From assembly GCA_024763505.1 (NCBI GenBank), contig JANTFI010000001.1:8602-72601 (forward strand): a DNA stretch of 64,000 bases, written 5' to 3'. A program made the position numbers and the translations under genes. This document shows, piece by piece, positions 43,233 through 58,976 of the stretch (its first letter is position 1; each line of letters starts with the position of its first letter). Origin of the DNA: Gammaproteobacteria bacterium. GTDB taxonomy: Bacteria; Pseudomonadota; Gammaproteobacteria; GCA-001735895. Under the pieces are notes generated by a model. That model ran no database searches. It worked only from the letters and a program-made list of their open reading frames with translations, and had not been told where the DNA came from.

Positions 43233-44027
43233 ATGTTCCTGAGACACGCACAAAATGCGTTGACATTGTCCTGGTATTTGAGTGTCGCATTGGTTATTTA
43301 TATCGGTTGGTCAGTCCGAGAGCAACGCTATCTGTTGGCTGAATCGGGTATTGGCTATTGGCTTGGCATTATCGGCGGAGCCATGATGCTGTTGCTTCTT
43401 TATTATCCGGTTCGTAAACGAAAGCCACGCTGGAAATATTCCGGCTCGATCAAATTCTGGTTTCGCTTCCACATGTTTCTGGGAATCGCGGGTCCAGTAC
43501 TGATTATTCTCCATTCCGGCTATCGACTGGGATCACTCAATGGCACGGTCGCATTTTTCTGCATGTTGATCGTGGCTGGCAGCGGGCTGATTGGCCGCTA
43601 TCTGTACCGGCGTATTCATCATGGCTTGTATGGCGAAAAAATCCGCTTCGAAGAGCTGTATCACAAGGATCAAAGCTGGGAAGAAAAGCTCGCAGAACTG
43701 AAGAATAAATATCCCGAACCGGTGGAAAAGCTCGGTGTTATTGAATCTCAACTGGTACAACACGGAGCCGCTGCCAGCCGTTCTCTCTGGTTTTACCAGT
43801 CGATGCAGTGGCAGTTGCAGACATTGAAGCGACAAATCATTCAGCAGTTGGGAAAAAATTCCGCAGACAGCGCCGGATTTCAGCAACGAATTCAAAGCCT
43901 GAAATCGATCACCAGCCTCGGAGTCCACGAGATTCTGTTTTCATACTGGCATATCCTGCATTTTCCCTTATTCATCATGCTGCTCATCTCCGGCATTACT
44001 CATGTCGTCGTGGTGCATTTTTACTAA
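43233..44027 (+). CDS. Polytopic His-rich membrane protein, candidate b-type cytochrome / quinol-side electron-transfer subunit.
   Basis: 264 aa. About 5 TM helices with conserved-looking His pairs (FRFHMFLGIAGPVLIILHSGY, YWHILHFPLFIMLLISGITHVVVVHFY). Its stop overlaps the start of the first multiheme cytochrome. Confidence 0.45.
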   Translation: MFLRHAQNALTLSWYLSVALVIYIGWSVREQRYLLAESGIGYWLGIIGGAMMLLLLYYPVRKRKPRWKYSGSIKFWFRFHMFLGIAGPVLIILHSGYRLGSLNGTVAFFCMLIVAGSGLIGRYLYRRIHHGLYGEKIRFEELYHKDQSWEEKLAELKNKYPEPVEKLGVIESQLVQHGAAASRSLWFYQSMQWQLQTLKRQIIQQLGKNSADSAGFQQRIQSLKSITSLGVHEILFSYWHILHFPLFIMLLISGITHVVVVHFY

Positions 44028-45592
44028 TGAAAAGGTTATGGACCACATTGTTTCTGCTGGCTCTACTGGTTAGCCAATCGGCCTGGGGTATCAGTCTGGA
44101 AAACCTGTTCTCTCCGGGTGAATTGATCGACGGGCATGCCAAAATCCAGCAAGATTGCAAGCAATGCCATGTGCGCGGGCGTGATCTCACGCAAAACGAT
44201 TTGTGTCTGGATTGCCATGAAAAGGTTAGCGCCGATGTCCACAACCGCAAGGGGTTTCATGGTCGTAGCGAACAAGTGGAATCCGTACAGTGTCGATCCT
44301 GCCATACCGATCACAAGGGCAGGGATGCCGATATTGTGTGGCTGGATCAGGATCGCTTCAACCATGAAATGAGCGATTACCGGCTGATTGGCAAGCACCG
44401 GCAAGCGAAATGCGAGAGTTGCCACGAGTCAGACAAACATTATCGCGAAGCCCCCTCGGCCTGCATTGATTGCCACAAGAAAGACGACGTGCACAAAAAC
44501 AAGCTGGGTAAAAAATGCGGGTCTTGCCATAACCCGAAAGCCTGGAGCAGTGAACAATTCGATCATGACCAGACGGCATTCAAACTCCGCTTTGCCCATA
44601 AACAAGTCGCCTGCGATCTTTGCCATGTCGAAAACCGCTACAAGAAAACGCCGAAAACCTGTGTTTCCTGTCATGCCATCAAGGATGTTCACCAAAACCG
44701 TTTCGGTAATGACTGCAAAGCCTGTCACAACACTGAAAAATGGGAAAAGCCGCGCTTCGATCACGACCGCAATACGCGTTTCAAACTCGAATCCAGTCAT
44801 CGTTCGGTTGGTTGCAACGCTTGCCATGCGCGTACCCGGCAAGCCTTACCCGGAAAAAAATCCAGTCCCCGTCGCTGTATTGCCTGCCACAAGCTCGATG
44901 ATGTGCATCAAGGCGAAAACGGAAAACGCTGTGAGCAATGCCATGCCGAGGATCGCTGGTCGAAAAACAGCTTTGACCATGATCAGGACACGAAATTTAA
45001 ATTGCGCGGCGCTCATGCCAAGGCCAGTTGCGAATCCTGTCATCAGAAAGATTTACGCGGAAAGAAAACCAGCCCGGCCTGTTACAGCTGCCACCAGCAT
45101 CAAGATGCACACAAGGGCCAGGAAGGGGAATCCTGCGAAACCTGTCATAACGATAAAAGCTGGTGGTTGGAAGATGTGCGCTATGACCATGATTTAAGCG
45201 ATTTTCCGTTGCTCGGCCAGCATGCCGTGGTCGGTTGCGAAGCATGCCATTTGTCTTCCGCGTTCAAGGATGTCAAGCAAGCCTGTGTCGATTGTCATGC
45301 AGAAGATGACATCCACGATCAGACTTTGGGGCAAAAATGCCAGCAGTGCCATAACCCGAACGATTGGCTGATTTGGCAATTCGACCACAATCGAACCGAT
45401 TTCAAACTGAAAGGCGCGCATGAAAAGCTGCATTGCCGGCTTTGTCATAACCGGCCAATGGAAAATGCAGTCGAGCTCAAGCAGCAATGTATCGACTGCC
45501 ATCGTGCCGATGATGTGCACGATGGCAATTTTGGCGGCGATTGCGAGCGTTGCCATAACCAGACAGATTTTTCTGTCATTCAAATCAATTAA
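44027..45592 (+). CDS. Multiheme c-type cytochrome with 21 CxxCH motifs, built from 7 triheme (c7-like) modules.
   Basis: 521 aa. Signal peptide MKRLWTTLFLLALLVSQSAWG. 21 CxxCH motifs counted by eye. Recurring module FDHDxTxFKLxGAHxxxxCxxCH...CxxCHxxDDVHxxxxGxxCxxCH. Confidence 0.85.
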   Translation: MKRLWTTLFLLALLVSQSAWGISLENLFSPGELIDGHAKIQQDCKQCHVRGRDLTQNDLCLDCHEKVSADVHNRKGFHGRSEQVESVQCRSCHTDHKGRDADIVWLDQDRFNHEMSDYRLIGKHRQAKCESCHESDKHYREAPSACIDCHKKDDVHKNKLGKKCGSCHNPKAWSSEQFDHDQTAFKLRFAHKQVACDLCHVENRYKKTPKTCVSCHAIKDVHQNRFGNDCKACHNTEKWEKPRFDHDRNTRFKLESSHRSVGCNACHARTRQALPGKKSSPRRCIACHKLDDVHQGENGKRCEQCHAEDRWSKNSFDHDQDTKFKLRGAHAKASCESCHQKDLRGKKTSPACYSCHQHQDAHKGQEGESCETCHNDKSWWLEDVRYDHDLSDFPLLGQHAVVGCEACHLSSAFKDVKQACVDCHAEDDIHDQTLGQKCQQCHNPNDWLIWQFDHNRTDFKLKGAHEKLHCRLCHNRPMENAVELKQQCIDCHRADDVHDGNFGGDCERCHNQTDFSVIQIN

Positions 45593-45875
45593 CGGAGCAG
45601 TGGCGTCGGCTTTACATTGGGCGGATGGTCATTGAGGCAGTGGAAGGCAGGGATGCCTCGAGAACGGGAAAGGCAGTTTTTTTTGGTTATTGTGGTGCAA
45701 GCCTTGTGCGGGTTGATGCGAAAACTTCTCGCTTATTCACAACTGTACTTAGGCAATAACCCACCGGGGAATGAATCCACCAGAAAAAGATTTTACCACT
45801 GCAAGATCCCGAATTCGTTTCGACCTGAATACATTACTTCAGGCCGAACCGGTTTCAGCCACTGAGGAGACGATC

Positions 45876-48035
45876 ATGAAGAACCGCACCGAAATCCGGG
45901 TAGAGCCGCAAACCCGCATGCATTACCAGCCATTCGCGTGGTTGCTGTTGATGTTTGCACTGTTGCTTGCATGGCAAAATGCCAGCTTCGCGGCCCAGCA
46001 ACCTTTTGATCATGATGACACCCGTTTCCCGCTGGATTTTTCTCATGCGCGCGTCAGTTGTGATTCCTGCCATCTGCAAGGCGTTTTCAAGGGCACACCG
46101 GTCAATTGTTCGGGATGTCATGCCAGTGCCAGCCGCATTCAGGCCAGTAGCAAGTCGCCTTCGCATATCAATAGTTCGAATGATTGTGAATTCTGTCATC
46201 AAAGCGGCAACTGGAATGTCGTCACGCGTGTTGACCATTTTGCCGTCAGCGGCAGTTGCCAGAGTTGTCACAACGGCATCAATTCGATGGGCAAAAATCC
46301 GCAACATATCCAGAGCAGCAACCAATGTGATGATTGCCATGTCACATCGAGCTGGAGCAATGCGGTTTTTGATCATGCTGGTGTCATCGGCAGTTGCGTC
46401 ACTTGCCACAATGGCAGTATCGCCACGGGCAAGCATCCAAGCCATATCCTGTCAACCCAGAATTGTGAAGATTGTCATCGAACCATCAGTTGGAAACCGG
46501 CCAGCCGGGTCGATCATGACGCCGTCATTGGCAGTTGCAGCAGTTGTCATAACGGTGTGTTGGCAGAAGGCAAGAATGCCACCCATATTGCAACGACCGC
46601 TCAATGCGACGAGTGCCACAATACCGTGTCCTGGTCATCGGCGACCTTCAATCATGATGGTGTGACTACAGGCTGTTCGAGTTGTCACAATGGCGCTGCC
46701 GCCAAAGGCAAGCATCCACAACATATCGCTTCGACCAATGAATGCGAAGCTTGTCATGCGATCAATCGCTGGGCTCCGGCAACCCGGGTCGATCATGATG
46801 CCGTGAGCGGTAGTTGTTCCAGCTGTCATAATGGTGTGATTGCGACTGGCAAGAGCGCTGACCATTTGAATACAAGCAGTGAATGCGACAGTTGTCATAG
46901 CACGATCAACTGGAATTCGGCCAGTTTCAACCATGATGGTATTACCGATGCCTGTTTCAGTTGCCATAACGGTGTGCAGGAGACGGGTAAAACGCCGCAA
47001 CATATTTCGACCACCAATGATTGCGAACTATGCCATGCACCGTTTGGCTGGGCGCCAGCAACAAGGGTGGATCATGATGCAGTTACCGGCACTTGCTCCA
47101 GTTGTCATAACGGTGTGACTGCCATCGGAAAGAGTCCGCAGCATATTGCCACCAACAGCGAATGCGACAGTTGCCACAACACTATCAACTGGATCTCGGC
47201 CAATTTTACCCATGACGGAATCACGTCTTCCTGCTCGAGTTGTCATAACAGTGTGCAGGCGACCGGCAAGAATCCGCAGCATATAGCCTCAAGCAATGAC
47301 TGTGAACTGTGCCATACCAGCATCGGCTGGATACCGGTGACCCGGGTCGACCATGATGCGGTGAGTGGAACATGCTCGAGTTGTCACAACGGTGTCACGG
47401 CAACCGGTAAAACCGCCGCTCATGTCACGACCAGTAGCGAATGTGATAGCTGTCATACATCCACGGTAAGTTGGAGTACGGTGAATTTTGATCATGCGGG
47501 CGTAACCGGAAACTGTATCAGTTGCCACGATGGTATTACGGCCACGGGCAAGAATCCTCAGCATGTCTCTACCACTAACGAATGCGTGCTATGCCATTCG
47601 ACGGTGGGCTGGGCGCCGGTCCTCAAGGTTGATCATGATGCGGTGCTGGGATCCTGTTCGAGTTGTCATAATGGCACCGTTTCTACCGGTAAGCCGGCAG
47701 ATCACTTTGTCACTGTCAAGGAGTGTGACTATTGTCATTCCACCGTTTCCTGGCCGAGTCTGACCTTTACTCATCAGTCGGTGAATTACCCGGGTGACCA
47801 TCGCGGTTCACTCAGTTGCGTGAGCTGTCACACCGCCAACAGTGAAACCATGATCTGGCCGTTCCCGGCTTATAAGCCAGATTGCGCAGGCTGTCACGCC
47901 AGTGACTATCGACAAAACAAGCATGAAAACTTTAATAATGGCTTCTTCACGGTCAGTGAATTGAGAGACTGCACCGGTGCCTGCCACTCTTCTGCAGGGC
48001 ATCACCGGATTACTGACAGGAGTTGGGGAAATTGA
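45876..48035 (+). CDS. Multiheme c-type cytochrome with 27 CxxCH plus one CxxxCH, built from about 13 tandem paired-CXXCH repeat units.
   Basis: 719 aa. GAGGAG Shine-Dalgarno 7 nt upstream. Signal peptide. Repeat unit about 45 aa: HIxSSNxC[DE]xCH...W...[VF][DN]HDxVxGxCSSCHNGVxATGKxPQ. Confidence 0.85.
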   Translation: MKNRTEIRVEPQTRMHYQPFAWLLLMFALLLAWQNASFAAQQPFDHDDTRFPLDFSHARVSCDSCHLQGVFKGTPVNCSGCHASASRIQASSKSPSHINSSNDCEFCHQSGNWNVVTRVDHFAVSGSCQSCHNGINSMGKNPQHIQSSNQCDDCHVTSSWSNAVFDHAGVIGSCVTCHNGSIATGKHPSHILSTQNCEDCHRTISWKPASRVDHDAVIGSCSSCHNGVLAEGKNATHIATTAQCDECHNTVSWSSATFNHDGVTTGCSSCHNGAAAKGKHPQHIASTNECEACHAINRWAPATRVDHDAVSGSCSSCHNGVIATGKSADHLNTSSECDSCHSTINWNSASFNHDGITDACFSCHNGVQETGKTPQHISTTNDCELCHAPFGWAPATRVDHDAVTGTCSSCHNGVTAIGKSPQHIATNSECDSCHNTINWISANFTHDGITSSCSSCHNSVQATGKNPQHIASSNDCELCHTSIGWIPVTRVDHDAVSGTCSSCHNGVTATGKTAAHVTTSSECDSCHTSTVSWSTVNFDHAGVTGNCISCHDGITATGKNPQHVSTTNECVLCHSTVGWAPVLKVDHDAVLGSCSSCHNGTVSTGKPADHFVTVKECDYCHSTVSWPSLTFTHQSVNYPGDHRGSLSCVSCHTANSETMIWPFPAYKPDCAGCHASDYRQNKHENFNNGFFTVSELRDCTGACHSSAGHHRITDRSWGN
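46080..47720 (+). repeat. Intragenic tandem DNA repeats (about 135 bp unit, about 12 copies, diverged) encoding the paired-CXXCH modules.
   Basis: Recurrent ...gtcgatcatgatgc(g/c)gt...ggcagttgc(a/t)c(c/g)agttgtcataa(c/t)gg... segments at regular spacing through the gene. Confidence 0.7.
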
Positions 48036-48104: not shown

Positions 48105-50234
48105 ATGATAATTAAAAAAATAGTTGCGGCACTCCTGTTGCTCGTGCTTGTCTGGTCTCCTGTTGCCATGCCAGCGGAAACTGTATTATCGGGTGTCGAA
48201 ATGGTTTTGAAAAAATCGGCCGGAACAACACATCTCAAGCAGTACACACTGATTCTGGCCTCTTATGAAAAAATGCCGGCCGGTACTGAGCTAAAAAAGT
48301 TGTCGCGTCTCGACAGTAACTGGGTTTATTTCACCAAAGTGAATGTAAAAAACCGGGTTTATTATCGCCTTGTGGTCGGAAATTATTCGACTCTGAAACA
48401 GGCTCGCAGCGTGCTTGCCGGGTTTCGCAAACAATTCAGCGGAGCCTGGATTCATAAAAGAGATACGTCAGAAATAAAACTGTTGGCTGTAAAAGTGCCG
48501 ATGCTGACCCGCCCATCGGTAACTCGGCCAGGTTCGAAAACATTGCCGGTCAAACCGGCACAAAAAGCAACGTCGTCGGTTACAAATTCCGATATGAAAA
48601 AGGAGCAAGCGCTTACCCGCGACGGGAGGCAATCCAGAAATGTTTTCGCCGAAAAACTGTTGTCGCAATCACGCCAACTGTTGCTGGACCGCAAATACGC
48701 GCAACTGGTTAAGGTCAGCAACAAGGTTATAGAAGTCGGCAATGCCGAACAAAAGCAACGGGGCATGCAATTCGCCGGACTGGCGCGAGAGCGGCAACGC
48801 AAGTTCGCTCAGGCGATTGCGATTTATAAGCGCTTTCTCGAGCAATACCCGGACAGTTCATTGGCACGCAAGATTCAATCCCGCCTGAATACCCTCAAAA
48901 CCATGAATCTTGAACCCAGAACCCGAATGGCCAGACGCAGCAAACAACGCAGTGATGATGGCTGGTCGCTGACCGGGTCCTTTTCCCAGTATTACCGTAA
49001 GAATTTCAATGACACGACCGAGAATGGAAATGAAGTGATCAATGATTCGCTACTTACTGATATCAGTCTGTACGCGCGAAATCGTACACAAAGCAGCACA
49101 ACTATCATCCGATTCGATGGAGGGCTGGTGAGTGATTTTCTGGATGATAGCAACGACAGCAACCTGAGTCGCGCTTCGCTGCGTTATACCAGCCACGATG
49201 CCGACTATGAAGTTATCGCCGGGCGCCAATCGAGAACGGCAAAAGGCGTACTCGGTCGATTCGACGGGGTGGTCTATAGTGGGCTGTCACATGAAAACTG
49301 GGATTACAGCCTGTATGCAGGCTTTCCGGTGCAATCTTCGTCCGATGGTTTCAAGTCCGCACGGCGTTTTATTGGCAGCAATCTCAGTCTGCAACCGGCG
49401 GAAAAAATGGAGCTGGATCTGTATCTGCTGTTTCAGCAAAACGAAGGCTTGACCGATCGTCAGGCGGTCGGCTCACAGCTGCAATACCGCAGTGACAAAG
49501 GGTTCCTGTTCACGATTTTTGATTATGATTTTTTCTATAAAGAGATCAATGACTTGACCGCGATTACGAATTATCGCTTCAGCTCTGTCCTGACTCTGAA
49601 TCTTACCCTTAACTACCGAAATTCGCCGACGCTTACGAGCTTGAACGCGATTCAGGGGCAGGGGGTGACTACATTCGAAGAGTTGACCCGTTTATACCCG
49701 GAGGATGAGATTTATCAGTTGGCCGCAGACCGGACCAGCAAAAGTAAAAATCTGTTTCTTAACGTCAGTTACCAAATCGATCAAGCGCACCAGCTCGATA
49801 CCAGTATTGCGGTTTCGCAAGTCGAAGAAACGGTGGCTTCGGGCGGCGTCGAAGCGGCTCCGGCCAGTGAGGATTTCAATCTATCGAGCAGCTACACCAT
49901 TAACGGTTATTTTCTGCCGGATGATTTCACCACCTTCGGGCTCAGATATTCTGACACCACGTCTTCCCACAGTCTGTCGTTTCGCTTGCGAGCACGGTTC
50001 AAGGGAAGTGAAGGATGGCGATATGATCCGAGACTCCAACTGGATTATCGCGAAAGTAAAACCAGCGGTGTTCAACAGTGGATTGTAAGGCCGAAATTCA
50101 AGGTCAAATATAAACCCAACAAGAAGACAAGCCTGGAAGCCAGTGTCGGCATCGATTATTCAAATTTTGATTTACCGGAGCTGGACGACCAACTGACGAC
50201 CAATTTCCTTATCGGTTATCTTTACCGGATATAA
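48105..50234 (+). CDS. Secreted SPOR-domain + TPR-like + C-terminal beta-barrel protein (putative outer-membrane component).
   Basis: 709 aa. Signal peptide. SPOR-like segment (VYFTKVNVKNRVYYRLVVGNYSTLKQARSVLAGFRKQFSGAWI). Helical TPR-like region. About 430-aa C-terminal region with alternating-hydrophobic, aromatic-rich beta-strand pattern ending ..IGYLYRI. Confidence 0.6.
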   Translation: MIIKKIVAALLLLVLVWSPVAMPAETVLSGVEMVLKKSAGTTHLKQYTLILASYEKMPAGTELKKLSRLDSNWVYFTKVNVKNRVYYRLVVGNYSTLKQARSVLAGFRKQFSGAWIHKRDTSEIKLLAVKVPMLTRPSVTRPGSKTLPVKPAQKATSSVTNSDMKKEQALTRDGRQSRNVFAEKLLSQSRQLLLDRKYAQLVKVSNKVIEVGNAEQKQRGMQFAGLARERQRKFAQAIAIYKRFLEQYPDSSLARKIQSRLNTLKTMNLEPRTRMARRSKQRSDDGWSLTGSFSQYYRKNFNDTTENGNEVINDSLLTDISLYARNRTQSSTTIIRFDGGLVSDFLDDSNDSNLSRASLRYTSHDADYEVIAGRQSRTAKGVLGRFDGVVYSGLSHENWDYSLYAGFPVQSSSDGFKSARRFIGSNLSLQPAEKMELDLYLLFQQNEGLTDRQAVGSQLQYRSDKGFLFTIFDYDFFYKEINDLTAITNYRFSSVLTLNLTLNYRNSPTLTSLNAIQGQGVTTFEELTRLYPEDEIYQLAADRTSKSKNLFLNVSYQIDQAHQLDTSIAVSQVEETVASGGVEAAPASEDFNLSSSYTINGYFLPDDFTTFGLRYSDTTSSHSLSFRLRARFKGSEGWRYDPRLQLDYRESKTSGVQQWIVRPKFKVKYKPNKKTSLEASVGIDYSNFDLPELDDQLTTNFLIGYLYRI

Positions 50235-50345: not shown

Positions 50346-51065
50346 CTATTTGCCCCGAATCTGGTTTTTCATATCCTTGTAATCGATATGGCGCACATCC
50401 TTGCCGTGCACCAGATATAACACGTATTCACAGATATTGGTGGCGTGGTCTCCAATGCGTTCGAGTGCGCGCGCGCACCAGGCTACACGCAGAGCATTCT
50501 TGATCGTGCGCGGGTCTTCCATCATGACGGTTATCAACTGGCGCATCAGCGCTTCGTATTCATTGTCGATCTTGGTGTCTTTCTTGATGGTTTTCAGTGC
50601 AGCCTGATCATCGACCCGGGCAAAGGCATCGAGCGCATTGTGCAACAACTTGCTGACCAGGTTGCCGAGATGTTCGAGCTTGGCGTAATCGGTCGAGGTC
50701 GAGCCTTCATCGATTAATTCCAGTTCGAACTGGCCCAGTTTTTCAGCCTGATCACCGATCCGTTCGAGATCGGTAATGGTTTTGATGATGGCGATAATCA
50801 GACGCAAGTCGGTGGCCGCCGGTTGACGTCGTGCCAGAATCTGCACGCACATTTCGTCGATCTTGACTTCCATCGAATTGACCACATGATCGCCTTCGGC
50901 GACTTGCCGGGCGACTTCAGAATTTGACTCCAGCAATGCCTGAATGCCGGAATTTACCTGGGTTTCTACCAGCCCGCCCATGGCCAGCACATGATTGCGG
51001 ATGTCTTCCAGTTCGCTGTCGAAGCGGCGAGAAATATGCCCGCCGATGGGTGATTCTTGATCCAT
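50346..51065 (-). CDS. phoU: Phosphate-specific transport system accessory protein PhoU.
   Basis: 239 aa, two PhoU repeats. Confidence 0.9.
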   Translation of the reverse strand: MDQESPIGGHISRRFDSELEDIRNHVLAMGGLVETQVNSGIQALLESNSEVARQVAEGDHVVNSMEVKIDEMCVQILARRQPAATDLRLIIAIIKTITDLERIGDQAEKLGQFELELIDEGSTSTDYAKLEHLGNLVSKLLHNALDAFARVDDQAALKTIKKDTKIDNEYEALMRQLITVMMEDPRTIKNALRVAWCARALERIGDHATNICEYVLYLVHGKDVRHIDYKDMKNQIRGK

Positions 51066-51080
51066 GCTTGTTCCTCTTGA

Positions 51081-51923
51081 TTATCCGAATTTGCCGGTAA
51101 TGTAATTCTCGGTCAACTGGTGACGTGGATTAGTGAAAATCTGATTGGTTTGCCCGACCTCGATCAATCGCCCGAGGTGGAAATAGGCCGTACGTTGAGA
51201 TACCCGCGCTGCCTGCTGCATCGAGTGGGTGACGATGGCGATGGTGAAGTTTTCACGTAATTCATCAATCAATTCCTCGATGGTCGCTGTGGCGATCGGG
51301 TCGAGTGCCGAGGCCGGTTCATCCATCAGGATTACTTCCGGGCTGACCGCGATAGTGCGGGCGATGCACAAGCGCTGTTGCTGGCCACCGGACAAACCGG
51401 TACCGGGGGCATCGAGGCGATCCTTGACTTCCTTGAACAGCCCCGCCTTTTGCAAACTGGTTTCAACGATTTCATCGAGTTCGGATGAATTACGCGCCAA
51501 CCCATGAATGCGTGGGCCGTAGGCGACATTATCGTAAATCGACTTGGGAAATGGATTCGGTTTCTGGAACACCATGCCGACCCGGGCGCGAAGCAACACT
51601 GGATCCATCGACTTGCCATAGATATTCTCGCCATCGAGTTTCAATTCACCTTCGACCCGGCAGATCGGTATGGTGTCGTTCATCCGGTTGAGAGAACGCA
51701 GATAAGTGGATTTTCCACAACCGGAAGGGCCGATCAGGGCGATTACTTCGTTTTCGGCGATATCCAGCGAAGCATCGAAAATCGCCTGCTTTTCGCCGTA
51801 GAACACGTTGACGTTGCGGGTGGAAAACTTGGCATTTTCAACCAGGTTTTCACCGATGGTCCCATCAAATTGAATATCCTGATGCGCATCGATAACCGGT
51901 GCTGTTTCATGTAATGTTGTCAT
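51081..51923 (-). CDS. pstB: Phosphate ABC transporter ATP-binding protein PstB.
   Basis: 280 aa. Walker [18 protein letters not shown], Walker B ILMDEP. Confidence 0.92.
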
Positions 51924-51983
51924 AAGACTGCTTTGAATCGTTAAAATTGAATAGCCGAAAAACGTTTATTGCTGCAAAACACG

Positions 51984-53249
51984 TTACCAGCGGCGCTCAA
52001 ACTGCTTGCGTAAATAAATGGCGATCGCATTCATGGTGACCAGAAATGCCAGCAATACCAGAATCGCGGCGGCCGTCAGCGCGGTAAAAGCTCGTTCTGG
52101 ACTGTCAGCCCAGAGATAGATTTGTACCGGCAATACGGTCGCCGAATCGAGTATGCCACCGGGCACATCGACGATAAAGGCGACCATGCCGATCATCAGC
52201 AACGGGGCGGTTTCACCGAGCGCCTGCGCCATACCGATAATCGCACCGGTGAGAATGCCAGGCATGGCCAGCGGCAGTACATGGTGAAATACGGTTTGCA
52301 TGTGCGAAGCGCCCAGTCCAAGCGCAGCTTCCTTGATCGAGGGTGGAACCGATTTAATTGCGGCTCGTGCCGAGATGATGATGGTAGGCAGGGTCATCAA
52401 CGACAAGACGATACCACCGACCAGCGGCGCGGAGCGAGGCATACCAAAAAAATTGATGAACACGGCCAGACCGAGCAAGCCAAAAACAATGGATGGAACT
52501 GCGGCCAGATTATTGATATTGACTTCGATAATATCGGTAAGCTTGTTTTTCGGTGCGAATTCTTCCAGATACACCGCTGCGCCGATACCGATTGGCAACG
52601 AAATCACCAGTGTGACCAACAGGGTCCAGAACGACCCGACCAATGCCCCCCGGATGCCGGCCTGTTCCGGTTCACGCGAATCACTGTTTTGAAAAAAGGT
52701 ATCGTTGAACCGGGTACGAATCTTGCCCTGATCCATCAATTGCTGAATCATTTCGGCCTGTTTCGGCTTGATCCGGCTGGTAGATTTTTTCAATTTATAA
52801 AAGGTGTCAACATCGTCATCGGCGGTCACCCACAAGCTGATCTTGCCTTGCTGGATCAGTTCCGGCTCGCTCAGAATCAAGTCTCGCAATTGATATTCGG
52901 CCCCGCTTGAGATCAGCCGATAGAGCAATTTCTTGTCTTTGCGTTTTTTGACGTCTGGAAAGACTTCACGCAAGGATTTTTTCAGTACGCCGCCAAAGTC
53001 GACGGTACGTAAACTTTCGGGATCAATACGAGTGTCTGGCTGCAACCCCAGGGTTTCCCAATCGATCGGAACCTGCAACTGAATCTCGGTTTTTTGGAAC
53101 GCCGGTAGTGCTTTTAACGTGATATCCAGCAACAAGGTAGCGAGAAACACAAAGCCGATCCACACGGCAATCTTGCCATACCATTGAAAGCGCTTTTCAC
53201 GTGCATAGCGTTTTTTCAGGCTCAGTTTGACCTGTTCGGTATTATTCAT
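51984..53249 (-). CDS. pstA: Phosphate ABC transporter permease PstA.
   Basis: Permease with EAA-like loop. Start taken at MNNTEQVKL (8-nt overlap with the pstC stop). The track ORF extends to 53291. Confidence 0.85.
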   Translation of the reverse strand: MNNTEQVKLSLKKRYAREKRFQWYGKIAVWIGFVFLATLLLDITLKALPAFQKTEIQLQVPIDWETLGLQPDTRIDPESLRTVDFGGVLKKSLREVFPDVKKRKDKKLLYRLISSGAEYQLRDLILSEPELIQQGKISLWVTADDDVDTFYKLKKSTSRIKPKQAEMIQQLMDQGKIRTRFNDTFFQNSDSREPEQAGIRGALVGSFWTLLVTLVISLPIGIGAAVYLEEFAPKNKLTDIIEVNINNLAAVPSIVFGLLGLAVFINFFGMPRSAPLVGGIVLSLMTLPTIIISARAAIKSVPPSIKEAALGLGASHMQTVFHHVLPLAMPGILTGAIIGMAQALGETAPLLMIGMVAFIVDVPGGILDSATVLPVQIYLWADSPERAFTALTAAAILVLLAFLVTMNAIAIYLRKQFERRW

Positions 53250-54612
53250 ATTGCTCTCGATATTTTCTGACGATGTGCAGGGCGAAGACATTCAATACCA
53301 GCGTGGTGACGAACAGCATCAACCCCAAAGCGAAGGCGGCCAGTGTTTTCGGGCTATCGAACTCCTGATCACCGGTCAGCAATGTGACGATTTGGACGGT
53401 TACCGTGGTGACCGCTTCCAGCGGGTTTGCGGTCAGGTTGGCCGACAGCCCGGCGGCCATCACTACAATCATGGTTTCACCAATGGCGCGGGACGCTGCC
53501 AGCAAAACTCCGCCGACTATGCCGGGCAGGGCGGCTGGAATAATTACCTGCTTGATCGTTTCCGATCGGGTTGCGCCGAGGCCCAGTGAGCCATCTCGCA
53601 TCGCTTGAGGCACGGCGGTGATGACATCGTCTGAGAGTGAGGAAACGAACGGAATAATCATTACGCCCATCACCACGCCAGCCGCCAGTGCGCTTTCGGA
53701 AGAGACATCAAGCCCGATAGACTGCCCCAGGTCTCGGATGAAGGGTGCGACGGTCAGGGCGGCAAAAAAGCCATACACCACGGTTGGGATACCGGCCAGA
53801 ATTTCCAGCGCGGGTTTGGCGGTTGCGCGAAACCGCTGGCTGGCATATTCCGACAGGTAAATGGCAGAGAACAGTCCCACCGGTACCGCGATCAGCAGTG
53901 CGATGGCTGAAATCAGCAGCGTACCGAAAAATAGTGGAACCGCACCGAAGGCACCGGAAGACCCGGCCTGGTCGGCGCGGATTGCGATTTGCGGGCTCCA
54001 TTTGGTGCCAAACACAAAATCGAAAAAATTGACTGACTGGAAGAAACGCAATGATTCGAACAATACCGACAGCACGATGCCGATGGTGGTGACGATCGCA
54101 ACGCCTGAGCAAATAAACAGTGCGACTCTGATGACGGTTTCGGTATGGCTGCGTGCTTGTGTCCTGAGCAGAGAATTGGTCATAGCATAGACAATGCCGG
54201 AAAGACCCAGCAACACCACCAGTACGGTCAGGATCCAGTTACTTTCCTGTTGCAATTGCTGGTAGCGATCGACCGCGCGAATCAACACCGGATCATCGCG
54301 GGTATCATTATTTTGAATCGCCAGCAGGATATCGTTCATGTACAGGTCGACCGAGGCATTTGACTGGGTCAACACCGATTGCGGCAGCACCTCGCGGATT
54401 TGTTCATGAATATACACGGGTTTGAGAGCGGACCAGGCGACTAACAGGATCAGCGCCGGTAATCCACTCCAGATGGCGGTGTAATAGCCATAGTGTTTGG
54501 GTAAAGCCTTCAGGCGCCCGTTTTTCTGAGCACGGGCTGCACGGAATCTGCCCGCAAGAAAGGCTAAAATCGATAAGCCGATTATCAGCAGAATTAGAAC
54601 AGATGCAGTCAT
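53242..54612 (-). CDS. pstC: Phosphate ABC transporter permease PstC (long form).
   Basis: 456 aa polytopic permease upstream of pstA. Confidence 0.88.
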   Translation of the reverse strand: MTASVLILLIIGLSILAFLAGRFRAARAQKNGRLKALPKHYGYYTAIWSGLPALILLVAWSALKPVYIHEQIREVLPQSVLTQSNASVDLYMNDILLAIQNNDTRDDPVLIRAVDRYQQLQQESNWILTVLVVLLGLSGIVYAMTNSLLRTQARSHTETVIRVALFICSGVAIVTTIGIVLSVLFESLRFFQSVNFFDFVFGTKWSPQIAIRADQAGSSGAFGAVPLFFGTLLISAIALLIAVPVGLFSAIYLSEYASQRFRATAKPALEILAGIPTVVYGFFAALTVAPFIRDLGQSIGLDVSSESALAAGVVMGVMIIPFVSSLSDDVITAVPQAMRDGSLGLGATRSETIKQVIIPAALPGIVGGVLLAASRAIGETMIVVMAAGLSANLTANPLEAVTTVTVQIVTLLTGDQEFDSPKTLAAFALGLMLFVTTLVLNVFALHIVRKYREQYE

Positions 54613-54722
54613 CAGGCGTGGTCAGGTAATGTGAAAAGGATGGGATTATACACAGCTTCAAGCAGGCACAAAAACAAATGCCCGCAATCGTGCGGGCACT
54701 TATAAGGTCATGACTATCCAGC

Positions 54723-55763
54723 TTACATTTTCAGCTTTTCAGAGTTTTTGACGCGCTTGCGCATAGCGGCACGGTCGGCCTTAGACAGTGGAATCAATCC
54801 CTTGTCGATCAGGTAACCTTCGTCACCGAAAGCGGCTTCACTGGTGAATTCGACGAGGTAATCCTGCATACCTGGGATGGCTTTTTTATGCGCATTCTTG
54901 ACATAAAAGAACAGTGGGCGAGAGATCGGGTAAGAACCATCGGCAATGGTTTCGAACTCAGGCGCTTCACCTTCCACAATGGAACCCTGTACATAGTCGT
55001 CATTCTGTTCGAGGAAAGAGAAACCGAAGATACCCATAGCTTTCGGGTTGCTTTCGAGCTTCTGCACGATCAGATTGTCGTTTTCACCGGCTTCAATATA
55101 CGCACCGTCTTCACGAACCGTGTGGCAGATCGACTTGTACTTCTTTTTGTCTTTCTTTTTCATCGCCTTGATCCAGTCAACCTTCTTGCAACCACCTTCC
55201 ATTGCGAGTTCGGCAAAAGCATCCCGAGTGCCGGAAGTCGGTGGCGGCCCAAGCACTTCAATCTTGTAATTGGGCAGAGACGGGTTCACCTGATTCCAGG
55301 TCTGGTAAGGGTTTTCAATCAACTTGTGACCACCTTTCGGATCCGGAACCTGTTTGGCCAGTGCCAGAAACATATCCTTGCGAGAGAGTTTGAATTGCGG
55401 GGCTTTTTTGGAGTTTGCAAAAGCGATTCCATCATAGCCGATCTGTATTTCAGTAATATCGGTAACGCCGTTTTTCATGCATTTTTTGTATTCAGAAGAC
55501 TTGATCGCCCGCGAGGCATTGGTGATATCCGGCGTATTCAGGCCTGCACCGGCACAGAACAGCTTCATGCCACCGCCGGAACCGGTGGATTCGATTTTGG
55601 GGGTTTTATGACCGCTTTTCTTGCCGAATTTTTCAGCTACTACAGTCGCAAAAGGATAAACCGTGGAAGAACCCACAATATTAATGGTGTCACGACCGGC
55701 GGCTTGTGCCTGTAGTGAAATCAAACTGCAACTGATCGCAGTAGCGAGAACCAGGTGTTTCAT
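54723..55763 (-). CDS. pstS: Phosphate-binding periplasmic protein PstS.
   Basis: 346 aa. Signal peptide MKHLVLATAISCSLISLQAQA. PBP fold motifs (GSSTVYPF, GSGGG). Confidence 0.9.
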   Translation of the reverse strand: MKHLVLATAISCSLISLQAQAAGRDTINIVGSSTVYPFATVVAEKFGKKSGHKTPKIESTGSGGGMKLFCAGAGLNTPDITNASRAIKSSEYKKCMKNGVTDITEIQIGYDGIAFANSKKAPQFKLSRKDMFLALAKQVPDPKGGHKLIENPYQTWNQVNPSLPNYKIEVLGPPPTSGTRDAFAELAMEGGCKKVDWIKAMKKKDKKKYKSICHTVREDGAYIEAGENDNLIVQKLESNPKAMGIFGFSFLEQNDDYVQGSIVEGEAPEFETIADGSYPISRPLFFYVKNAHKKAIPGMQDYLVEFTSEAAFGDEGYLIDKGLIPLSKADRAAMRKRVKNSEKLKM

Positions 55764-55826
55764 AAATACTCCTCAGTAGGATAGTGAATTGACATAAATC
55801 AGTGCGGCGCATTATCGGTGGTGAAT

Positions 55827-55844
55827 ATGACAGAAATGTTACAA
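55827..55844 (-). promoter_or_regulatory. Pho box upstream of pstS.
   Basis: Minus-strand TTGTAAC-ATTT-CTGTCAT (two 7-mers, 4-bp AT spacer; the second is a perfect CTGTCAT). About 64 bp upstream of the pstS ATG. Confidence 0.55.
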
Positions 55845-55941
55845 AAGAGAATGAATTGTTAAACAAATTCATCTAGCCTTGCGCAAAACCACGATAAACC
55901 TGTTTTCTTCCTGTCATCCAGCATTACGTCGAGCGGTATCT

Positions 55942-57510
55942 ATGGATCTTAAAAACATTAAACAGATCGAACAAGCCACTCAACCCAGCCAGGGCGAATT
56001 GTTCCGGCTTGGCATCGGATTTCTTTTTGTCATAATCATCCTGCTGTTCACCGGCTCTGCCTACGCCAGTATCGAGGGCGGATTTCTGCTGATTAGCGCC
56101 GCCATGATCGGTGGTTATATGGCGATGAATATCGGTGCCAACGATGTTGCCAATAACGTCGGACCGGCGGTGGGTTCACGCGCATTAACCCTGTTTGGGG
56201 CGATTGTAATTGCCGCGATTTTCGAAGCGGCGGGTGCCTTGATCGCCGGTGGCGATGTAGTCAGCACGATTAAAAAAGGCATCATCGATCCGTCCCTGAT
56301 TTCCGATACCGATACCTTTATCTGGCTGATGATGGCTGCTTTGCTGGCCGGCGCTATCTGGCTCAATATCGCGACCTATCTGGGTGCGCCGGTGTCGACC
56401 ACGCACTCGATCGTCGGCGGCGTGCTCGGAGCCGGCATTGCAGCCGGGGGCTTTGCCATTGCCAATTGGAGCAAAATGGGCATGATTGCGGCCAGTTGGG
56501 TGATTTCACCCATGCTCGGCGGTTTGATCGCCGCGTTCTTCCTGTATTTGATCAAGCGCAAGATCACTTACCGGACGGATATGCGGAAAGCCGCCAGTAA
56601 GGTCGTTCCGATTCTGGTTGCGATCATGGCCTGGGCGTTTTCGACCTATCTGATACTGAAAGGCTTGAAGAAGCTGGTGAAAGTCGATTTTCTGACCGCT
56701 CTTGGCATCGGGCTGGTGCTGGCAGTGGTGATTTATTTTATTGTAAGGCCGCTGATAGCCCGGGCTTCTCAATCCTTGAGTAATGACAAGGAAGGGGTGA
56801 ATCGGCTGTTTACCTTGCCACTGATTTTCGCCGCGGCTCTACTCAGCTTTGCCCACGGTGCCAATGATGTCGCCAATGCGGTCGGGCCGTTGGCTGCCAT
56901 CAATGATGCGATTTTACATGGCGGTGTACACCAGAAGGCGAGCATCCCGCTATGGGTGATGATGGTTGGAGCGATCGGCATCGCGATTGGCCTGGCCTTG
57001 TATGGACCGAAATTGATACGCACGGTTGGTTCCGAGATCACCGAACTGGACCAGATGCGAGCATTTTCGGTGGCGATGGCGGCGTCGATTACTGTCATTA
57101 TCGCTTCCCAGCTGGGGCTACCTGTCAGCTCGACCCATATCGCCGTCGGCGCCGTGTTCGGTGTGGGATTCCTGCGCGAATATCTGAAAGCCAGCTATGC
57201 CCAGATGGAAGATCAGATCGTGCAGCATCATCAAGGTAAGGATAAACAAGTGGTGGAAGCCTTTCTGGAAGATTTCAGACGTGCCAGCGTCGATGAAAAA
57301 GGCAAGTTGATCAAGCAGTTAAAGCAACACTCGGCCGACGCCGATCTCAGCCGTAAAGAGCGCAAGGCACTGGCCAAAGTCTATCGCAAGGAATTGGTCA
57401 AACGCTCGGCCTTGATGAAGATCGTGGCGGCCTGGCTGATTACTGTACCGGCTTCCGGCTTTTTGGCAGCGATCCTGTATTTCACCATACGCGGCATGCT
57501 GTTGCCCTGA
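55942..57510 (+). CDS. Inorganic phosphate transporter, PiT family, with large central cytoplasmic loop.
   Basis: About 522 aa from MDLKNIKQIEQ. Duplicated PiT signature GANDVANxVGP occurs twice (GANDVANNVGPAVG, GANDVANAVGPLAA). Confidence 0.85.
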   Translation: MDLKNIKQIEQATQPSQGELFRLGIGFLFVIIILLFTGSAYASIEGGFLLISAAMIGGYMAMNIGANDVANNVGPAVGSRALTLFGAIVIAAIFEAAGALIAGGDVVSTIKKGIIDPSLISDTDTFIWLMMAALLAGAIWLNIATYLGAPVSTTHSIVGGVLGAGIAAGGFAIANWSKMGMIAASWVISPMLGGLIAAFFLYLIKRKITYRTDMRKAASKVVPILVAIMAWAFSTYLILKGLKKLVKVDFLTALGIGLVLAVVIYFIVRPLIARASQSLSNDKEGVNRLFTLPLIFAAALLSFAHGANDVANAVGPLAAINDAILHGGVHQKASIPLWVMMVGAIGIAIGLALYGPKLIRTVGSEITELDQMRAFSVAMAASITVIIASQLGLPVSSTHIAVGAVFGVGFLREYLKASYAQMEDQIVQHHQGKDKQVVEAFLEDFRRASVDEKGKLIKQLKQHSADADLSRKERKALAKVYRKELVKRSALMKIVAAWLITVPASGFLAAILYFTIRGMLLP

Positions 57511-57540
57511 GCCTGACCGGTTGAGATTGCCTAAAGATGT

Positions 57541-57620
57541 GGCTCGGTCTAAGTCCAGTTATCTAGGTTCAGATATCTAGGTTCAGATATCTAGTTTCAG
57601 TCGTAACCCGAGCCGGATTT
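57541..57620. repeat. Three tandem 14-bp direct repeats (GTTCAGATATCTAG, each containing the palindrome AGATATCT) enclosed by a GGCTCGG...CCGAGCC inverted repeat, in the convergent pit/phoR intergenic region.
   Basis: Read directly: ggctcggtctaagtccagttatctag gttcagatatctag gttcagatatctag tttcagtcgtaacccgagcc. Confidence 0.7.
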
Positions 57621-58966: not shown

Positions 58967-58976
58967 GAGTGAGATG

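What the first reader, a model, noticed from the sequence alone, without database searches (positions are those of the whole stretch)
48105..50234. SPOR peptidoglycan-binding domain fused to a TPR segment and a putative outer-membrane beta-barrel
Three parts are visible in the sequence:
- Residues about 30-130 read as a SPOR domain (VYFTKVNVKNRVYYRLVVGNYSTLKQARSVLAGFRKQFSGAWI). Established knowledge: SPOR binds denuded septal glycan, as in FtsN, DamX and RlpA.
- A Pro/Ser/Thr linker and a TPR-like helical region.
- About 430 aa of beta-strand-like sequence ending ..GYLYRI.

TPR plus barrel is the architecture of exopolysaccharide and secretin-type exporters (BcsC, PgaA, AlgK/AlgE logic). I do not know of a SPOR domain attached to an outer-membrane barrel downstream of multiheme cytochromes.

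It could anchor a cytochrome-carrying outer-membrane complex to peptidoglycan, or target it to division septa.
Basis: partly seen in the sequence, partly recalled or inferred. Interest (0 to 1): 0.6.

Follow-up and report, generated by a model that had tools for sequence, protein, structure and literature searches.

The report
Peptidoglycan-tethered porin of a PCC3 cytochrome conduit
This gene encodes the outer-membrane barrel of an already-described but untested multi-haem "porin-cytochrome" electron conduit (PCC3), and it carries a cell-wall-binding SPOR domain that probably ties the conduit to the peptidoglycan layer.

Summary
The ORF at 48105-50234 (+), 709 aa, has a signal peptide, a SPOR domain (Pfam above threshold), a disordered linker, a YbgF-like TPR domain and a confidently modelled 22-strand outer-membrane beta-barrel.

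It is not an unknown system. It is the "porin" of the PCC3 gene cluster proposed by He et al. 2017. The window has the same gene order: an inner-membrane protein with the WX3HX13H/SGXXG motifs, a 21-haem cytochrome, a 27-haem cytochrome, then the porin. The protein is homologous over its full length to the porin of the named PCC3 cluster of Amphritea atlantica DSM 18887. 73 of 78 homologous loci have a multihaem gene directly upstream. There is no link to polysaccharide export.

What appears unreported in the PCC3 papers searched is the N-terminal module. SPOR is present in most of the family. In other PCC3 porins the same position holds AMIN (a clade) or LysM (one member), two unrelated peptidoglycan-binding folds. 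It remains inference: PCC3 function is untested, and the window protein has Ile where SPOR domains usually have Gln.

Verdict: new member of a known kind, moderate interest.

The parts
48105..50234 (+). Target gene: PCC3 'porin', 709 aa, reading signal peptide - SPOR - linker - TPR - 22-strand beta-barrel
   Evidence: ORF. Domains. Homologous over its full length (aa 4-708, 30% identity) to the porin of the Amphritea atlantica PCC3 cluster.
48105..48176 (+). Sec-type signal peptide (about aa 1-24, MIIKKIVAALLLLVLVWSPVAMPA). It has no cysteine, so the protein is not a lipoprotein.
   Evidence: Read directly from the sequence. Modelled as helix 2-17.
48243..48494 (+). SPOR domain (Pfam match aa 47-116; beta-alpha-beta-beta-alpha-beta fold plus a trailing helix to aa 130)
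   Evidence: Family conservation on the beta-sheet face: Arg at position 88 in 69/70, Tyr or Trp at position 86 in 68/70, Ser at position 53 in 67/70, Trp at position 115 in 70/70. The canonical beta1 Gln position (window I50) is Asn in 58/70 and Ile in 3/70, including the window protein.
48504..48623 (+). Disordered Pro/Ser/Thr/Lys-rich linker (aa 134-173)
   Evidence: pLDDT 35-48. Length is variable in the family (0-74 aa) and mean identity is 17%.
48624..48902 (+). Periplasmic TPR-like helical domain (aa 174-266)
48963..50231 (+). Outer-membrane beta-barrel, 22 strands (aa 287-708), ending in a beta-signal-like C-terminus
   Evidence: DSSP on the model. (matches to many solved outer-membrane barrels). 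The C-terminal residue is Phe in 60/70 family members and Ile in the window protein.
49626..49736 (+). Helical insert between strands 13 and 14 (aa 508-544). It is the most conserved segment of the protein.
   Evidence: Helices 512-516, 524-530 and 533-542. Mean identity 56% and invariant P508, L510, A515, Q519. Its location, lumen or extracellular face, could not be determined.
45771..48035 (+). Variable, predicted extracellular multihaem cytochrome: 27 CxxCH motifs plus one CX3-4CH. The true start is probably an internal Met just before the signal peptide.
   Evidence: The corresponding gene in relatives carries 7-73 haem motifs.
44027..45592 (+). Conserved periplasmic multihaem cytochrome with 21 CxxCH motifs and a Sec signal peptide
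   Evidence: A 21-haem ORF together with the inner-membrane protein is present in 36/44 loci that have 9 kb of upstream sequence.
43233..44027 (+). PCC3 inner-membrane protein, 264 aa, putative di-haem b
41794..43113 (-). Divergently transcribed membrane-anchored flavoprotein with 2x[4Fe-4S] and an NAD(P)H-type Pyr_redox_3 domain. It is a conserved neighbour of the cluster.
   Evidence: Present in 34/44 loci with 9 kb of upstream sequence, and also in L003, L005 and L087.
39782..41797 (-). Sel1 plus ankyrin-repeat protein with an N-terminal signal or anchor. It is a frequent neighbour of the cluster.
   Evidence: Present in 24/44 loci.

Best explanation
The gene encodes the outer-membrane beta-barrel subunit of a PCC3-type porin-multihaem-cytochrome conduit.

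Proposed mechanism:
- The 22-strand barrel gives a haem-packed cytochrome a path across the outer membrane. By analogy with MtrA in MtrB, the cytochrome inside the barrel is probably the invariant 21-haem periplasmic wire, which then contacts the variable 27-haem cytochrome.
- The TPR domain, which is present in all family members examined, hangs into the periplasm as a docking or assembly surface for a partner protein.
- The SPOR domain sits on a ~40-residue flexible tether and binds peptidoglycan glycan strands. This fixes the outer-membrane end of the conduit to the cell wall. It may also recruit the conduit to septal, amidase-processed peptidoglycan, so that the long haem wire is threaded through the wall while the wall is being built.

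Shown here: the domain architecture, membership of the PCC3 porin family, conserved synteny with the cytochromes, and replacement of SPOR by AMIN or LysM in other PCC3 porins.

Inferred: complex formation, which cytochrome occupies the barrel, actual peptidoglycan binding, septal targeting, and the direction and substrate of electron flow.
For: PCC3 identity:
- The gene order IMP / 21-haem / 27-haem / porin and the IMP motifs match He et al. 2017.
- The homolog in Amphritea atlantica DSM 18887 lies next to 21-haem and 63-haem ORFs, the same haem counts published for that strain's PCC3 cluster.
- The ES-1 cluster Slit_1446-1449 has the same gene order.

Synteny:
- 73/78 loci have an ORF with at least 4 haem motifs within 1.5 kb upstream.
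- 36/44 loci have the IMP plus a 21-haem ORF, while flanking genes differ between loci.

Structure:
- The model has pLDDT 89 and a 22-strand barrel.
- The family C-terminus ends in Phe in 60/70 members.

Peptidoglycan binding:
- SPOR scores above Pfam's threshold, and the family profile matches DamX, FtsN, RlpA and CwlC.
- The residues aligned to FtsN W283 and R285 are conserved, and a beta4 Trp is invariant.
- The SPOR segment has a fixed length of 71-72 aa and 33% mean identity, against 17% for the linker.
- 118 of the top 150 representatives carry SPOR, 24 of them in two or more copies.
- A clade of at least 23 clusters has AMIN at this position, and one member has LysM. Both variants sit inside PCC3 clusters.

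Precedent: PilQ AMIN domains recruit the type IVa pilus machine to future division sites (PMC5285504).
Against: - No experiment exists on any PCC3 component. In Sideroxydans ES-1 the clusters were down-regulated on Fe(II), and later papers still call the function untested.
- The window protein has Ile, and most of the family Asn, at the beta1 position where SPOR domains usually have the glycan-contacting Gln. Binding could therefore be weakened or altered.
- Some members have no N-terminal module at all: about 9 of the 150 top representatives, and SPOR is missing in 6/80 genome loci. Peptidoglycan tethering is therefore dispensable for the core function.
- A strongly conserved helical insert (aa 508-544) might occupy the barrel lumen. 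I could not inspect coordinates.
- No complex model could be made, so cytochrome insertion into the barrel rests on analogy with MtrAB.
Confidence: 0.6

Rival explanations
1. The barrel is a dedicated translocator or assembly pore rather than a permanent sheath. On this view the TPR-plus-barrel protein exports the large, non-lipoprotein extracellular cytochrome to the cell surface, by usher-like or Slam-like logic. Electron transfer across the outer membrane may then use another route, or the same pore afterwards.
For: - The 27-haem cytochrome has a Sec signal peptide but no lipobox, and the cluster encodes no other export route.
- TPR-plus-barrel is the layout of Slam and of polymer exporters.
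- Weak TPR_Slam and YfiO/BamD-like TPR matches occur in the family.
Against: - No HMM match to the Slam barrel, usher or secretin families was found. The TPR_Slam match (E=0.18) is far below threshold.
- Barrel size and the 21-haem cytochrome are constant while the putative cargo varies from 7 to 73 haems. That fits a fixed structural pairing of barrel and 21-haem wire better.
- This rival is not mutually exclusive with the main explanation.
Confidence: 0.2
2. The SPOR-like domain no longer binds peptidoglycan. Instead it serves as a protein-protein module inside the conduit, for example docking a cytochrome, the unassigned 'module X' protein or the ankyrin protein.
For: - The canonical Gln is replaced by Asn in 58/70 family members and by Ile in the window protein. 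Alcorlo et al. describe that Gln as the one highly conserved glycan-contacting side chain.
- The family has its own invariant residues: R88, G92 and W115.
Against: - Independent replacement by AMIN and LysM, whose common property is peptidoglycan binding, is hard to explain by a specific protein partner.
- The positions aligned to FtsN W283 and R285, which are required for septal localisation, are conserved.
- According to Alcorlo et al., much of the SPOR-glycan contact is through main-chain atoms.
Confidence: 0.12
3. The protein is an exopolysaccharide or other polymer exporter of the BcsC/PgaA/PelB/AlgE type that merely happens to lie next to cytochrome genes.
Against: - No HMM match to any of these families at E<=1.
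- No glycosyltransferase or polymer-synthesis genes lie in the module. Association with multihaem cytochromes holds in 73/78 loci across roughly 30-50% sequence identity to the window protein.
Confidence: 0.02

Closest known systems
PCC3 porin of the PCC3 porin-cytochrome c gene cluster (He et al. 2017, Front Microbiol 8:1584; e.g. Slit_0867 and Slit_1449 of Sideroxydans lithotrophicus ES-1, and the Amphritea atlantica DSM 18887 cluster)
   Same: - The same four-gene order: IMP, 21-haem periplasmic cytochrome, larger variable cytochrome, porin.
- The same IMP motifs.
- Homology over the full length to the Amphritea porin.
- A predicted outer-membrane barrel.
   Different: - The published descriptions treat the protein simply as a porin, with 'up to 42' PRED-TMBB transmembrane regions. 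The PCC3 papers I read or searched do not mention SPOR, TPR or peptidoglycan.
- Here only aa 287-708 form the barrel (22 strands), and the first ~285 aa are periplasmic SPOR and TPR domains.
- The window's subclade lacks 'module X', which most other members carry fused or as a separate gene.
- I could not retrieve the ES-1 sequences to compare them directly.
MtrB/MtoB/PioB of the MtrCAB-type porin-cytochrome complexes (solved structure 6r2q)
   Same: - A large outer-membrane barrel encoded next to a periplasmic and an extracellular multihaem cytochrome.
- The proposed working principle is the same: a haem wire insulated inside a barrel.
   Different: - No sequence-family match at E<=1.
- 22 strands in the model rather than the 26 I recall for MtrB (from memory).
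- The cytochromes carry 21 and 27 haems rather than the decahaems of the Mtr system.
- SPOR and TPR periplasmic domains are present. As far as I recall, MtrB has no such domains.
- The partner extracellular cytochrome here is not a lipoprotein.
SPOR-domain division proteins FtsN, DamX, DedD and RlpA
   Same: - The same Pfam family and the same beta-alpha-beta-beta-alpha-beta fold.
- Conserved positions aligned to FtsN W283 and R285.
- The expected ligand is denuded glycan, which is enriched at the septum (PMC6895207).
   Different: - Those proteins are inner-membrane anchored or lipoproteins that act in cell division. Here SPOR is fused to an integral outer-membrane barrel of a redox system.
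- The beta1 Gln is Asn in most of the family and Ile in the window protein.
PilQ secretin with N-terminal AMIN domains (type IVa pilus machine)
   Same: - An outer-membrane channel of an envelope-spanning machine that carries an N-terminal peptidoglycan-binding module.
- One clade of PCC3 porins uses AMIN itself.
- In PilQ, the AMIN domains recruit the machine to future division sites, described as 'preinstallation rather than retrofitting' (PMC5285504).
   Different: - PilQ is a multimeric secretin, not a monomeric beta-barrel.
- There is no homology outside the AMIN module.
- Localisation of PCC3 has never been examined.
TPR-plus-barrel exporters and translocators (BcsC, PgaA, PelB, AlgK/AlgE, Slam)
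   Same: A periplasmic TPR region followed by an outer-membrane barrel in one system.
   Different: - No HMM match.
- Only one short three-repeat YbgF-like TPR unit rather than a long TPR solenoid.
- 22 strands in the model, more than I recall for those barrels (from memory).
- The genomic partners are cytochromes, not polymer synthases or lipoproteins.

Membership tests
PCC3 porin (He et al. 2017) | Encoded in a cluster with a conserved inner-membrane protein, a periplasmic multihaem cytochrome (median 21 haems) and a larger extracellular multihaem cytochrome | tested here: met
   The window has the IMP at 43233-44027, a 21-CxxCH cytochrome at 44027-45592, a 27-CxxCH cytochrome at 45771-48035 and the porin at 48105-50234.
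PCC3 porin (He et al. 2017) | Sequence homology to the porin of a cluster explicitly named as PCC3 | tested here: met
   30% identity over aa 4-708 to the Amphritea atlantica DSM 18887 ORF that follows 21-haem and 63-haem ORFs. Those are the haem counts published for that strain. The ES-1 and Leptothrix sequences themselves were not available for comparison.
PCC3 porin (He et al. 2017) | The accompanying IMP has five TM helices, WX3HX13H on two helices and SGXXG | tested here: met
   W76-x3-H80-x13-H94, S117-G-x-x-G121 and W239-x3-H243-x13-H257 are invariant in 38 homologs. Hydrophobic segments and the helical model are consistent with this.
PCC3 porin (He et al. 2017) | Predicted outer-membrane beta-barrel | tested here: met
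PCC3 porin (He et al. 2017) | Forms a trans-outer-membrane complex with the cytochromes and mediates extracellular electron transfer | not testable with these tools
   This has not been shown for any PCC3 member. No multimer or haem-aware modelling was available.
SPOR domain (PF05036) | HMM match above Pfam's gathering score | tested here: met
   25.1 bits against 21 on the full protein and 29.7 bits on the isolated domain. 34/35 family members match.
SPOR domain (PF05036) | RNP-like beta-alpha-beta-beta-alpha-beta fold | tested here: met
   The model gives E47-54, H60-66, E74-81, E84-94, H97-108 and E115-118 at pLDDT about 89-95. The family profile matches the DamX SPOR structure 2lfv at E=2.8e-7.
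SPOR domain (PF05036) | Conserved beta1 glutamine that contacts NAM/NAG (RlpA Q270, FtsN Q251, DamX Q351) | tested here: not met
   The aligned position is Ile50 in the window protein. In the family it is Asn 58/70, Ile 3/70 and Gln 1/70.
SPOR domain (PF05036) | Basic and aromatic residues on the beta-sheet face needed for septal localisation (FtsN W283 and R285) | tested here: met
   The aligned positions are Tyr86 (Tyr or Trp in 68/70) and Arg88 (Arg in 69/70). The beta4 Trp115 is invariant.
SPOR domain (PF05036) | Binds denuded peptidoglycan glycan strands and localises to the septum | not testable with these tools
   There is only indirect support: AMIN and LysM occupy the same position in other PCC3 porins.
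TPR repeat | HMM match above the gathering score and a helical-hairpin fold | tested here: met
MtrB/PioB porin family | Sequence-family membership (a Pfam or NCBIfam model for MtrB/PioB-type barrels) | tested here: not met
Exopolysaccharide exporters (BcsC, PgaA, PelB, AlgE) | Sequence-family match and location in a polysaccharide-synthesis operon | tested here: not met
   No HMM match. The neighbours are cytochromes and redox proteins in the window and in 73/78 homologous loci.
Slam (TPR plus DUF560 barrel) | A DUF560 barrel match and a TPR_Slam match above threshold | tested here: not met
   TPR_Slam scores E=0.18, 12.7 bits against a cut-off of 35.2, and there is no barrel match.

The most novel reading that the evidence does not exclude
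PCC3 conduits may be installed at cell-division sites. On this reading, the interchangeable SPOR, AMIN or LysM module on the porin recognises septal or otherwise exposed peptidoglycan. The rigid 21-haem periplasm-spanning wire is then threaded through the cell wall while the wall is being built, without a dedicated hydrolase, which would give pole-localised electron conduits.

In addition, the conserved divergent NAD(P)H-type Fe-S flavoprotein, together with the ferric-reductase-like di-haem inner-membrane protein, would make PCC3 a split, envelope-spanning analogue of NADPH oxidases or ferric reductases. It would push cytoplasmic reducing power outward, rather than acting as an Fe(II) oxidase.
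Probability: 0.25. Interest if true: 0.7.

Novelty: new member of a known kind. Interest (0 to 1): 0.5.

Why it matters
PCC3 is one of the most widespread predicted extracellular-electron-transfer modules. The family profile finds about 4,170 clusters at 50% identity, and at least 492 pattern-matched stretches among GTDB species-representative genomes encode a relative. It occurs in marine sediment Gammaproteobacteria, symbiont relatives and iron oxidisers, yet nobody knows what it does or how it is assembled.

The 'porin' turns out to be a modular protein: a peptidoglycan-binding domain, a TPR domain and a 22-strand barrel. That gives concrete, cheap experiments, such as localisation of the SPOR/AMIN module, sacculus binding and point mutants. 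It also corrects the earlier picture of a giant 40-strand pore, and it suggests how a haem wire roughly as long as the periplasm is wide gets through the cell wall. The inconsistent database names for this family (BamD, TolA-binding protein, TPR protein, SPOR or AMIN domain protein) could be replaced by one annotation.

Tried and rejected
- **Exopolysaccharide exporter reading.** Rejected: no HMM matches, and synteny is with cytochromes.
- **Membership of the MtrB, Slam or usher families.** Rejected: only generic barrel similarity.
- **Direct sequence search of the PDB with the full protein.** Found nothing meaningful.
- **Look-up of the window protein's own contig.** Not on record. The nearest relatives are unnamed Gammaproteobacteria MAGs.
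- **AFDB50 fold search.** I wanted it to find named Sideroxydans or Leptothrix orthologs, but the library was unavailable.
- **He et al. supplementary tables.** The tables with porin details are not held. The ES-1 supplementary table carries no product names.
- **'Module X' as a divergent AMIN domain.** I suspected this for the ~115-aa module that replaces or precedes SPOR in many members. Not supported: no Pfam match, no PDB match and no hhalign match to a real AMIN sequence.
- **Promoter and terminator scan of the operon.** At chance level.
Full report
**1. The observation**

The ORF at 48105-50234 (+) is real. It encodes 709 aa, with the quoted SPOR-like peptide and the C-terminus GYLYRI.

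- **SPOR.** Pfam places SPOR (PF05036) at aa 47-116 with 25.1 bits, against a gathering score of 21.
- **TPR.** Pfam places TPR_6 at aa 225-251 with 27.2 bits, against 26.3.
- **C-terminal region.** Nothing in Pfam or NCBIfam covers aa ~290-709. The PDB holds no sequence relative of the full protein.
- **Model.** An AlphaFold2 model built on 70 homologs is confident (mean pLDDT 89.1). It shows:
  - a signal-peptide helix;
  - a beta-alpha-beta-beta-alpha-beta domain at aa 47-130;
  - a disordered segment at aa 134-173;
  - five helices at aa 174-266;
  - a short disordered hinge;
  - 22 beta-strands from aa 287 to 708, interrupted after strand 13 by a helical insert at aa 512-542.
- **Beta-signal.** The family C-terminus ends in Phe in 60/70 members, the usual outer-membrane beta-signal. 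The window protein ends in Ile.

**2. What it is**

The two genes upstream are multihaem cytochromes with 21 and 27 CxxCH motifs. Before them lies a 264-aa membrane protein.

This is the arrangement that He et al. 2017 named PCC3. Their cluster has:
- a periplasmic multihaem cytochrome (median 21 haems);
- a larger extracellular one (median 34 haems);
- a porin.

Several observations tie the window to PCC3.
- The window IMP has W76-x3-H80-x13-H94, S117-G-x-x-G121 and W239-x3-H243-x13-H257. All are invariant in 38 homologs.
One is in Amphritea atlantica DSM 18887. There the homolog (30% identity, aa 4-708) follows ORFs with 21 and 63 CxxCH motifs. He et al. report those same haem counts for that strain's PCC3 cluster.
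- In Sideroxydans ES-1 the published order Slit_1446 (IMP), 1447 (periplasmic cytochrome), 1448 (extracellular cytochrome), 1449 (porin) is the same as in the window.

The target is therefore a PCC3 porin.

**3. Strength of the association with cytochromes**

The following counts are for the 80 genome loci.

| Measure | Count |
|---|---|
| Loci with an ORF of at least 4 haem motifs within 1.5 kb upstream of the match | 73 of the 78 with at least 600 bp upstream |
| Exceptions with the cytochromes slightly further away | 2 |
| Exceptions with too little sequence | 2 |
| True orphan among housekeeping genes (L083) | 1 |
| Loci with both the IMP and a 21-haem ORF | 36 of the 44 with 9 kb upstream |

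- The second cytochrome varies from 7 to 73 haems.
- The barrel length is nearly constant (217-237 + 159-173 aa).
- Flanking genes differ between loci, so this is a mobile, self-contained module.
- No polysaccharide-synthesis genes accompany it.
- The family is large: 4,170 representative clusters at E<=1e-3 and 1,249 at E<=1e-30.
- Sources name its members inconsistently: 'SPOR domain-containing protein', 'AMIN domain-containing protein', 'BamD', 'TolA-binding protein' and 'TPR repeat protein'.

**4. The N-terminal module**

SPOR is a stable part of the family.
- The segment is 71-72 aa long in all 69 aligned relatives. It has 33% mean identity, against 17% in the linker.
- 34/35 isolated domains hit Pfam SPOR.
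- 74/80 genome loci have it.
- 118/150 top representatives have it, 24 of them with two or more copies.
- The family profile finds only SPOR proteins in the PDB: DamX at E=2.8e-7, then FtsN, RlpA and CwlC.

I compared the binding face with the structural and mutational literature (PMC6895207).

| Position | Family | Window protein |
|---|---|---|
| Aligned to FtsN W283 | Tyr or Trp in 68/70 | Tyr86 |
| Aligned to FtsN R285 | Arg in 69/70 | Arg88 |
| Aligned to FtsN S254 / DamX S354 | Ser in 67/70 | Ser53 |
| beta4 Trp | Trp in 70/70 | Trp115 |
| beta1 Gln (RlpA Q270) | Asn in 58/70, Ile in 3/70, Gln in 1/70 | Ile50 |

The beta-sheet face is under strong selection, but one canonical determinant is not met.

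The most informative result is comparative. In other PCC3 porins the same N-terminal position holds different peptidoglycan-binding folds.
- **AMIN.** A clade of at least 23 clusters carries AMIN (PF11741, up to 50.7 bits).
- **LysM.** At least one member carries LysM (PF01476, 48.6 bits).
- **Context.** Both variants sit in PCC3 clusters with IMP, multihaem cytochromes and, in one case, the flavoprotein.
- **Nearest relatives.** Over TPR plus barrel, the closest relatives of the AMIN clade carry SPOR.

Three unrelated folds whose common property is peptidoglycan binding have been swapped at one position. That argues that peptidoglycan binding is the selected function.

About 9 of the 150 top representatives have no N-terminal module. 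Tethering is therefore an accessory to a TPR-plus-barrel core.

**5. Mechanism proposed**

- **Shown:** the architecture, family membership, synteny and the domain swaps.
- **Inferred by analogy with MtrAB:**
  - The barrel insulates a haem wire across the outer membrane.
  - Barrel size and the 21-haem cytochrome are constant while the other cytochrome varies. The 21-haem protein is therefore the likelier occupant.
- **Inferred from the model:**
  - The TPR domain is a periplasmic docking surface.
  - The SPOR domain sits on a ~40-residue flexible tether and reaches the peptidoglycan layer.
- **Speculative:**
  - SPOR and AMIN both recognise septal peptidoglycan.
  - The cluster has no wall hydrolase.
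  - The conduit may therefore be installed at division sites, as shown for PilQ through its AMIN domains (PMC5285504).

No PCC3 component has been tested experimentally. In ES-1 the clusters were down-regulated on Fe(II), and the porin and IMP were detected by proteomics at modest levels.

**6. Rivals**

- **Dedicated translocator for the non-lipoprotein large cytochrome.** This cannot be excluded and may coexist with the sheath role.
- **SPOR domain repurposed for protein binding.** This is made less likely by the AMIN and LysM swaps.
- **Polysaccharide exporter.** This is effectively refuted by the synteny.

**7. Novelty**

The cluster and its porin have been known since 2017, so this is a new member of a known, though only bioinformatically defined, kind.

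- In the searchable literature no paper combines PCC3 or 'porin-cytochrome' with SPOR.
- The PCC3 papers I read describe the protein only as a porin, with up to 42 predicted transmembrane regions.
- The modular reading (peptidoglycan-binding domain, TPR, 22-strand barrel) and the SPOR/AMIN/LysM interchange therefore appear to be undescribed details. Automated annotation already labels some members 'SPOR domain-containing protein'.
- The library searched does not cover all journals.

**8. Other observations**

- **'Module X'.** A ~115-aa unassigned module is fused in front of SPOR in 62 of 85 related loci. It is often also encoded as a separate ~150-190-aa secreted protein between the large cytochrome and the porin. 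It is absent from the window and its subclade.
- **Flavoprotein.** A divergently transcribed, membrane-anchored 2x[4Fe-4S] NAD(P)H-type flavoprotein accompanies the cluster in 34/44 loci.
- **Ankyrin protein.** A Sel1/ankyrin protein accompanies the cluster in 24/44 loci.

Noticed in passing
window 41794-43113 (-): A divergently transcribed gene encodes an N-terminal TM helix, 2x[4Fe-4S] ferredoxin domains and a Pyr_redox_3/YpdA-like NAD(P)H flavoprotein domain. It is conserved next to the PCC3 IMP in 34/44 loci, but it is not among the four PCC3 genes described in the papers read. With the ferric-reductase-like di-haem IMP it suggests a split NOX-like electron route.
   Followed up: partly
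window 39782-41797 (-): A 671-aa Sel1 plus multi-ankyrin-repeat protein with an N-terminal signal or anchor overlaps the stop of the flavoprotein gene. It is conserved beside the cluster in 24/44 loci. Its role is unknown.
   Followed up: partly
Related loci, e.g. L061 9489-9956, L087 9495-9980, L088 1903-2376, L086 554-1048; fused at the porin N-terminus in 62 loci: 'Module X' is a ~115-aa domain with the motif EIxIxFxxPxRYxxHxP ... LxLxFxRxVxFxV ... DxRS and no Pfam or PDB match. It occurs fused in front of SPOR and/or as a separate secreted ~150-190-aa protein between the large cytochrome and the porin. It is absent from the window and its closest relatives (L001-L017).
   Followed up: partly
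window 49626-49736 (aa 508-544 of the target): A helical insert between barrel strands 13 and 14 is the most conserved stretch of the whole protein, with 56% mean identity and invariant P508, L510, A515 and Q519. That is unusual for a loop. It may line or plug the lumen, or contact a cytochrome.
   Followed up: no
window 45771-48035 (+): The 27-haem cytochrome consists of ~23-residue-spaced CxxCH repeats of the type ...VDHDAVxGxCSSCHNGxxAxGKxxxHIxTxxxCxxCH.... Its C-terminal tail (NYPGxH...CxxCH...PAYxPxCAxCH...) recurs in distant PCC3 clusters such as L086. The annotated ATG start probably lies upstream of the true start, because the signal peptide begins near residue 50.
   Followed up: partly
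L083 (CP070738.1), L017 (CP070646.1): These are exceptions to the synteny. L083 has a module X-SPOR-TPR-barrel gene with no haem-rich ORF anywhere in 21.5 kb, among housekeeping genes. L017 has only a 9-haem ORF upstream and no IMP or 21-haem gene.
   Followed up: partly
window 20440-20814 (-): A tmRNA gene (Rfam RF00023, 205.7 bits), the only Rfam match at gathering threshold in the window.
   Followed up: no
window 30125-36489 (-): Two large genes lie in a region of strong negative AT skew. One is a 1158-aa protein with bacterial TSP3 repeats and a PKD-like domain. The other is a 920-aa Ser/Thr protein kinase fused to TPR_12 repeats.
   Followed up: no
window 50346-59110: A phosphate-regulon block lies directly downstream, convergent with the target: phoU-like and pstB-, pstA-, pstC- and pstS-like genes on the minus strand, and a PhoR-type histidine kinase at 57620-59110. 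In relatives the PCC3 module has different downstream neighbours, so this adjacency is probably incidental.
   Followed up: no
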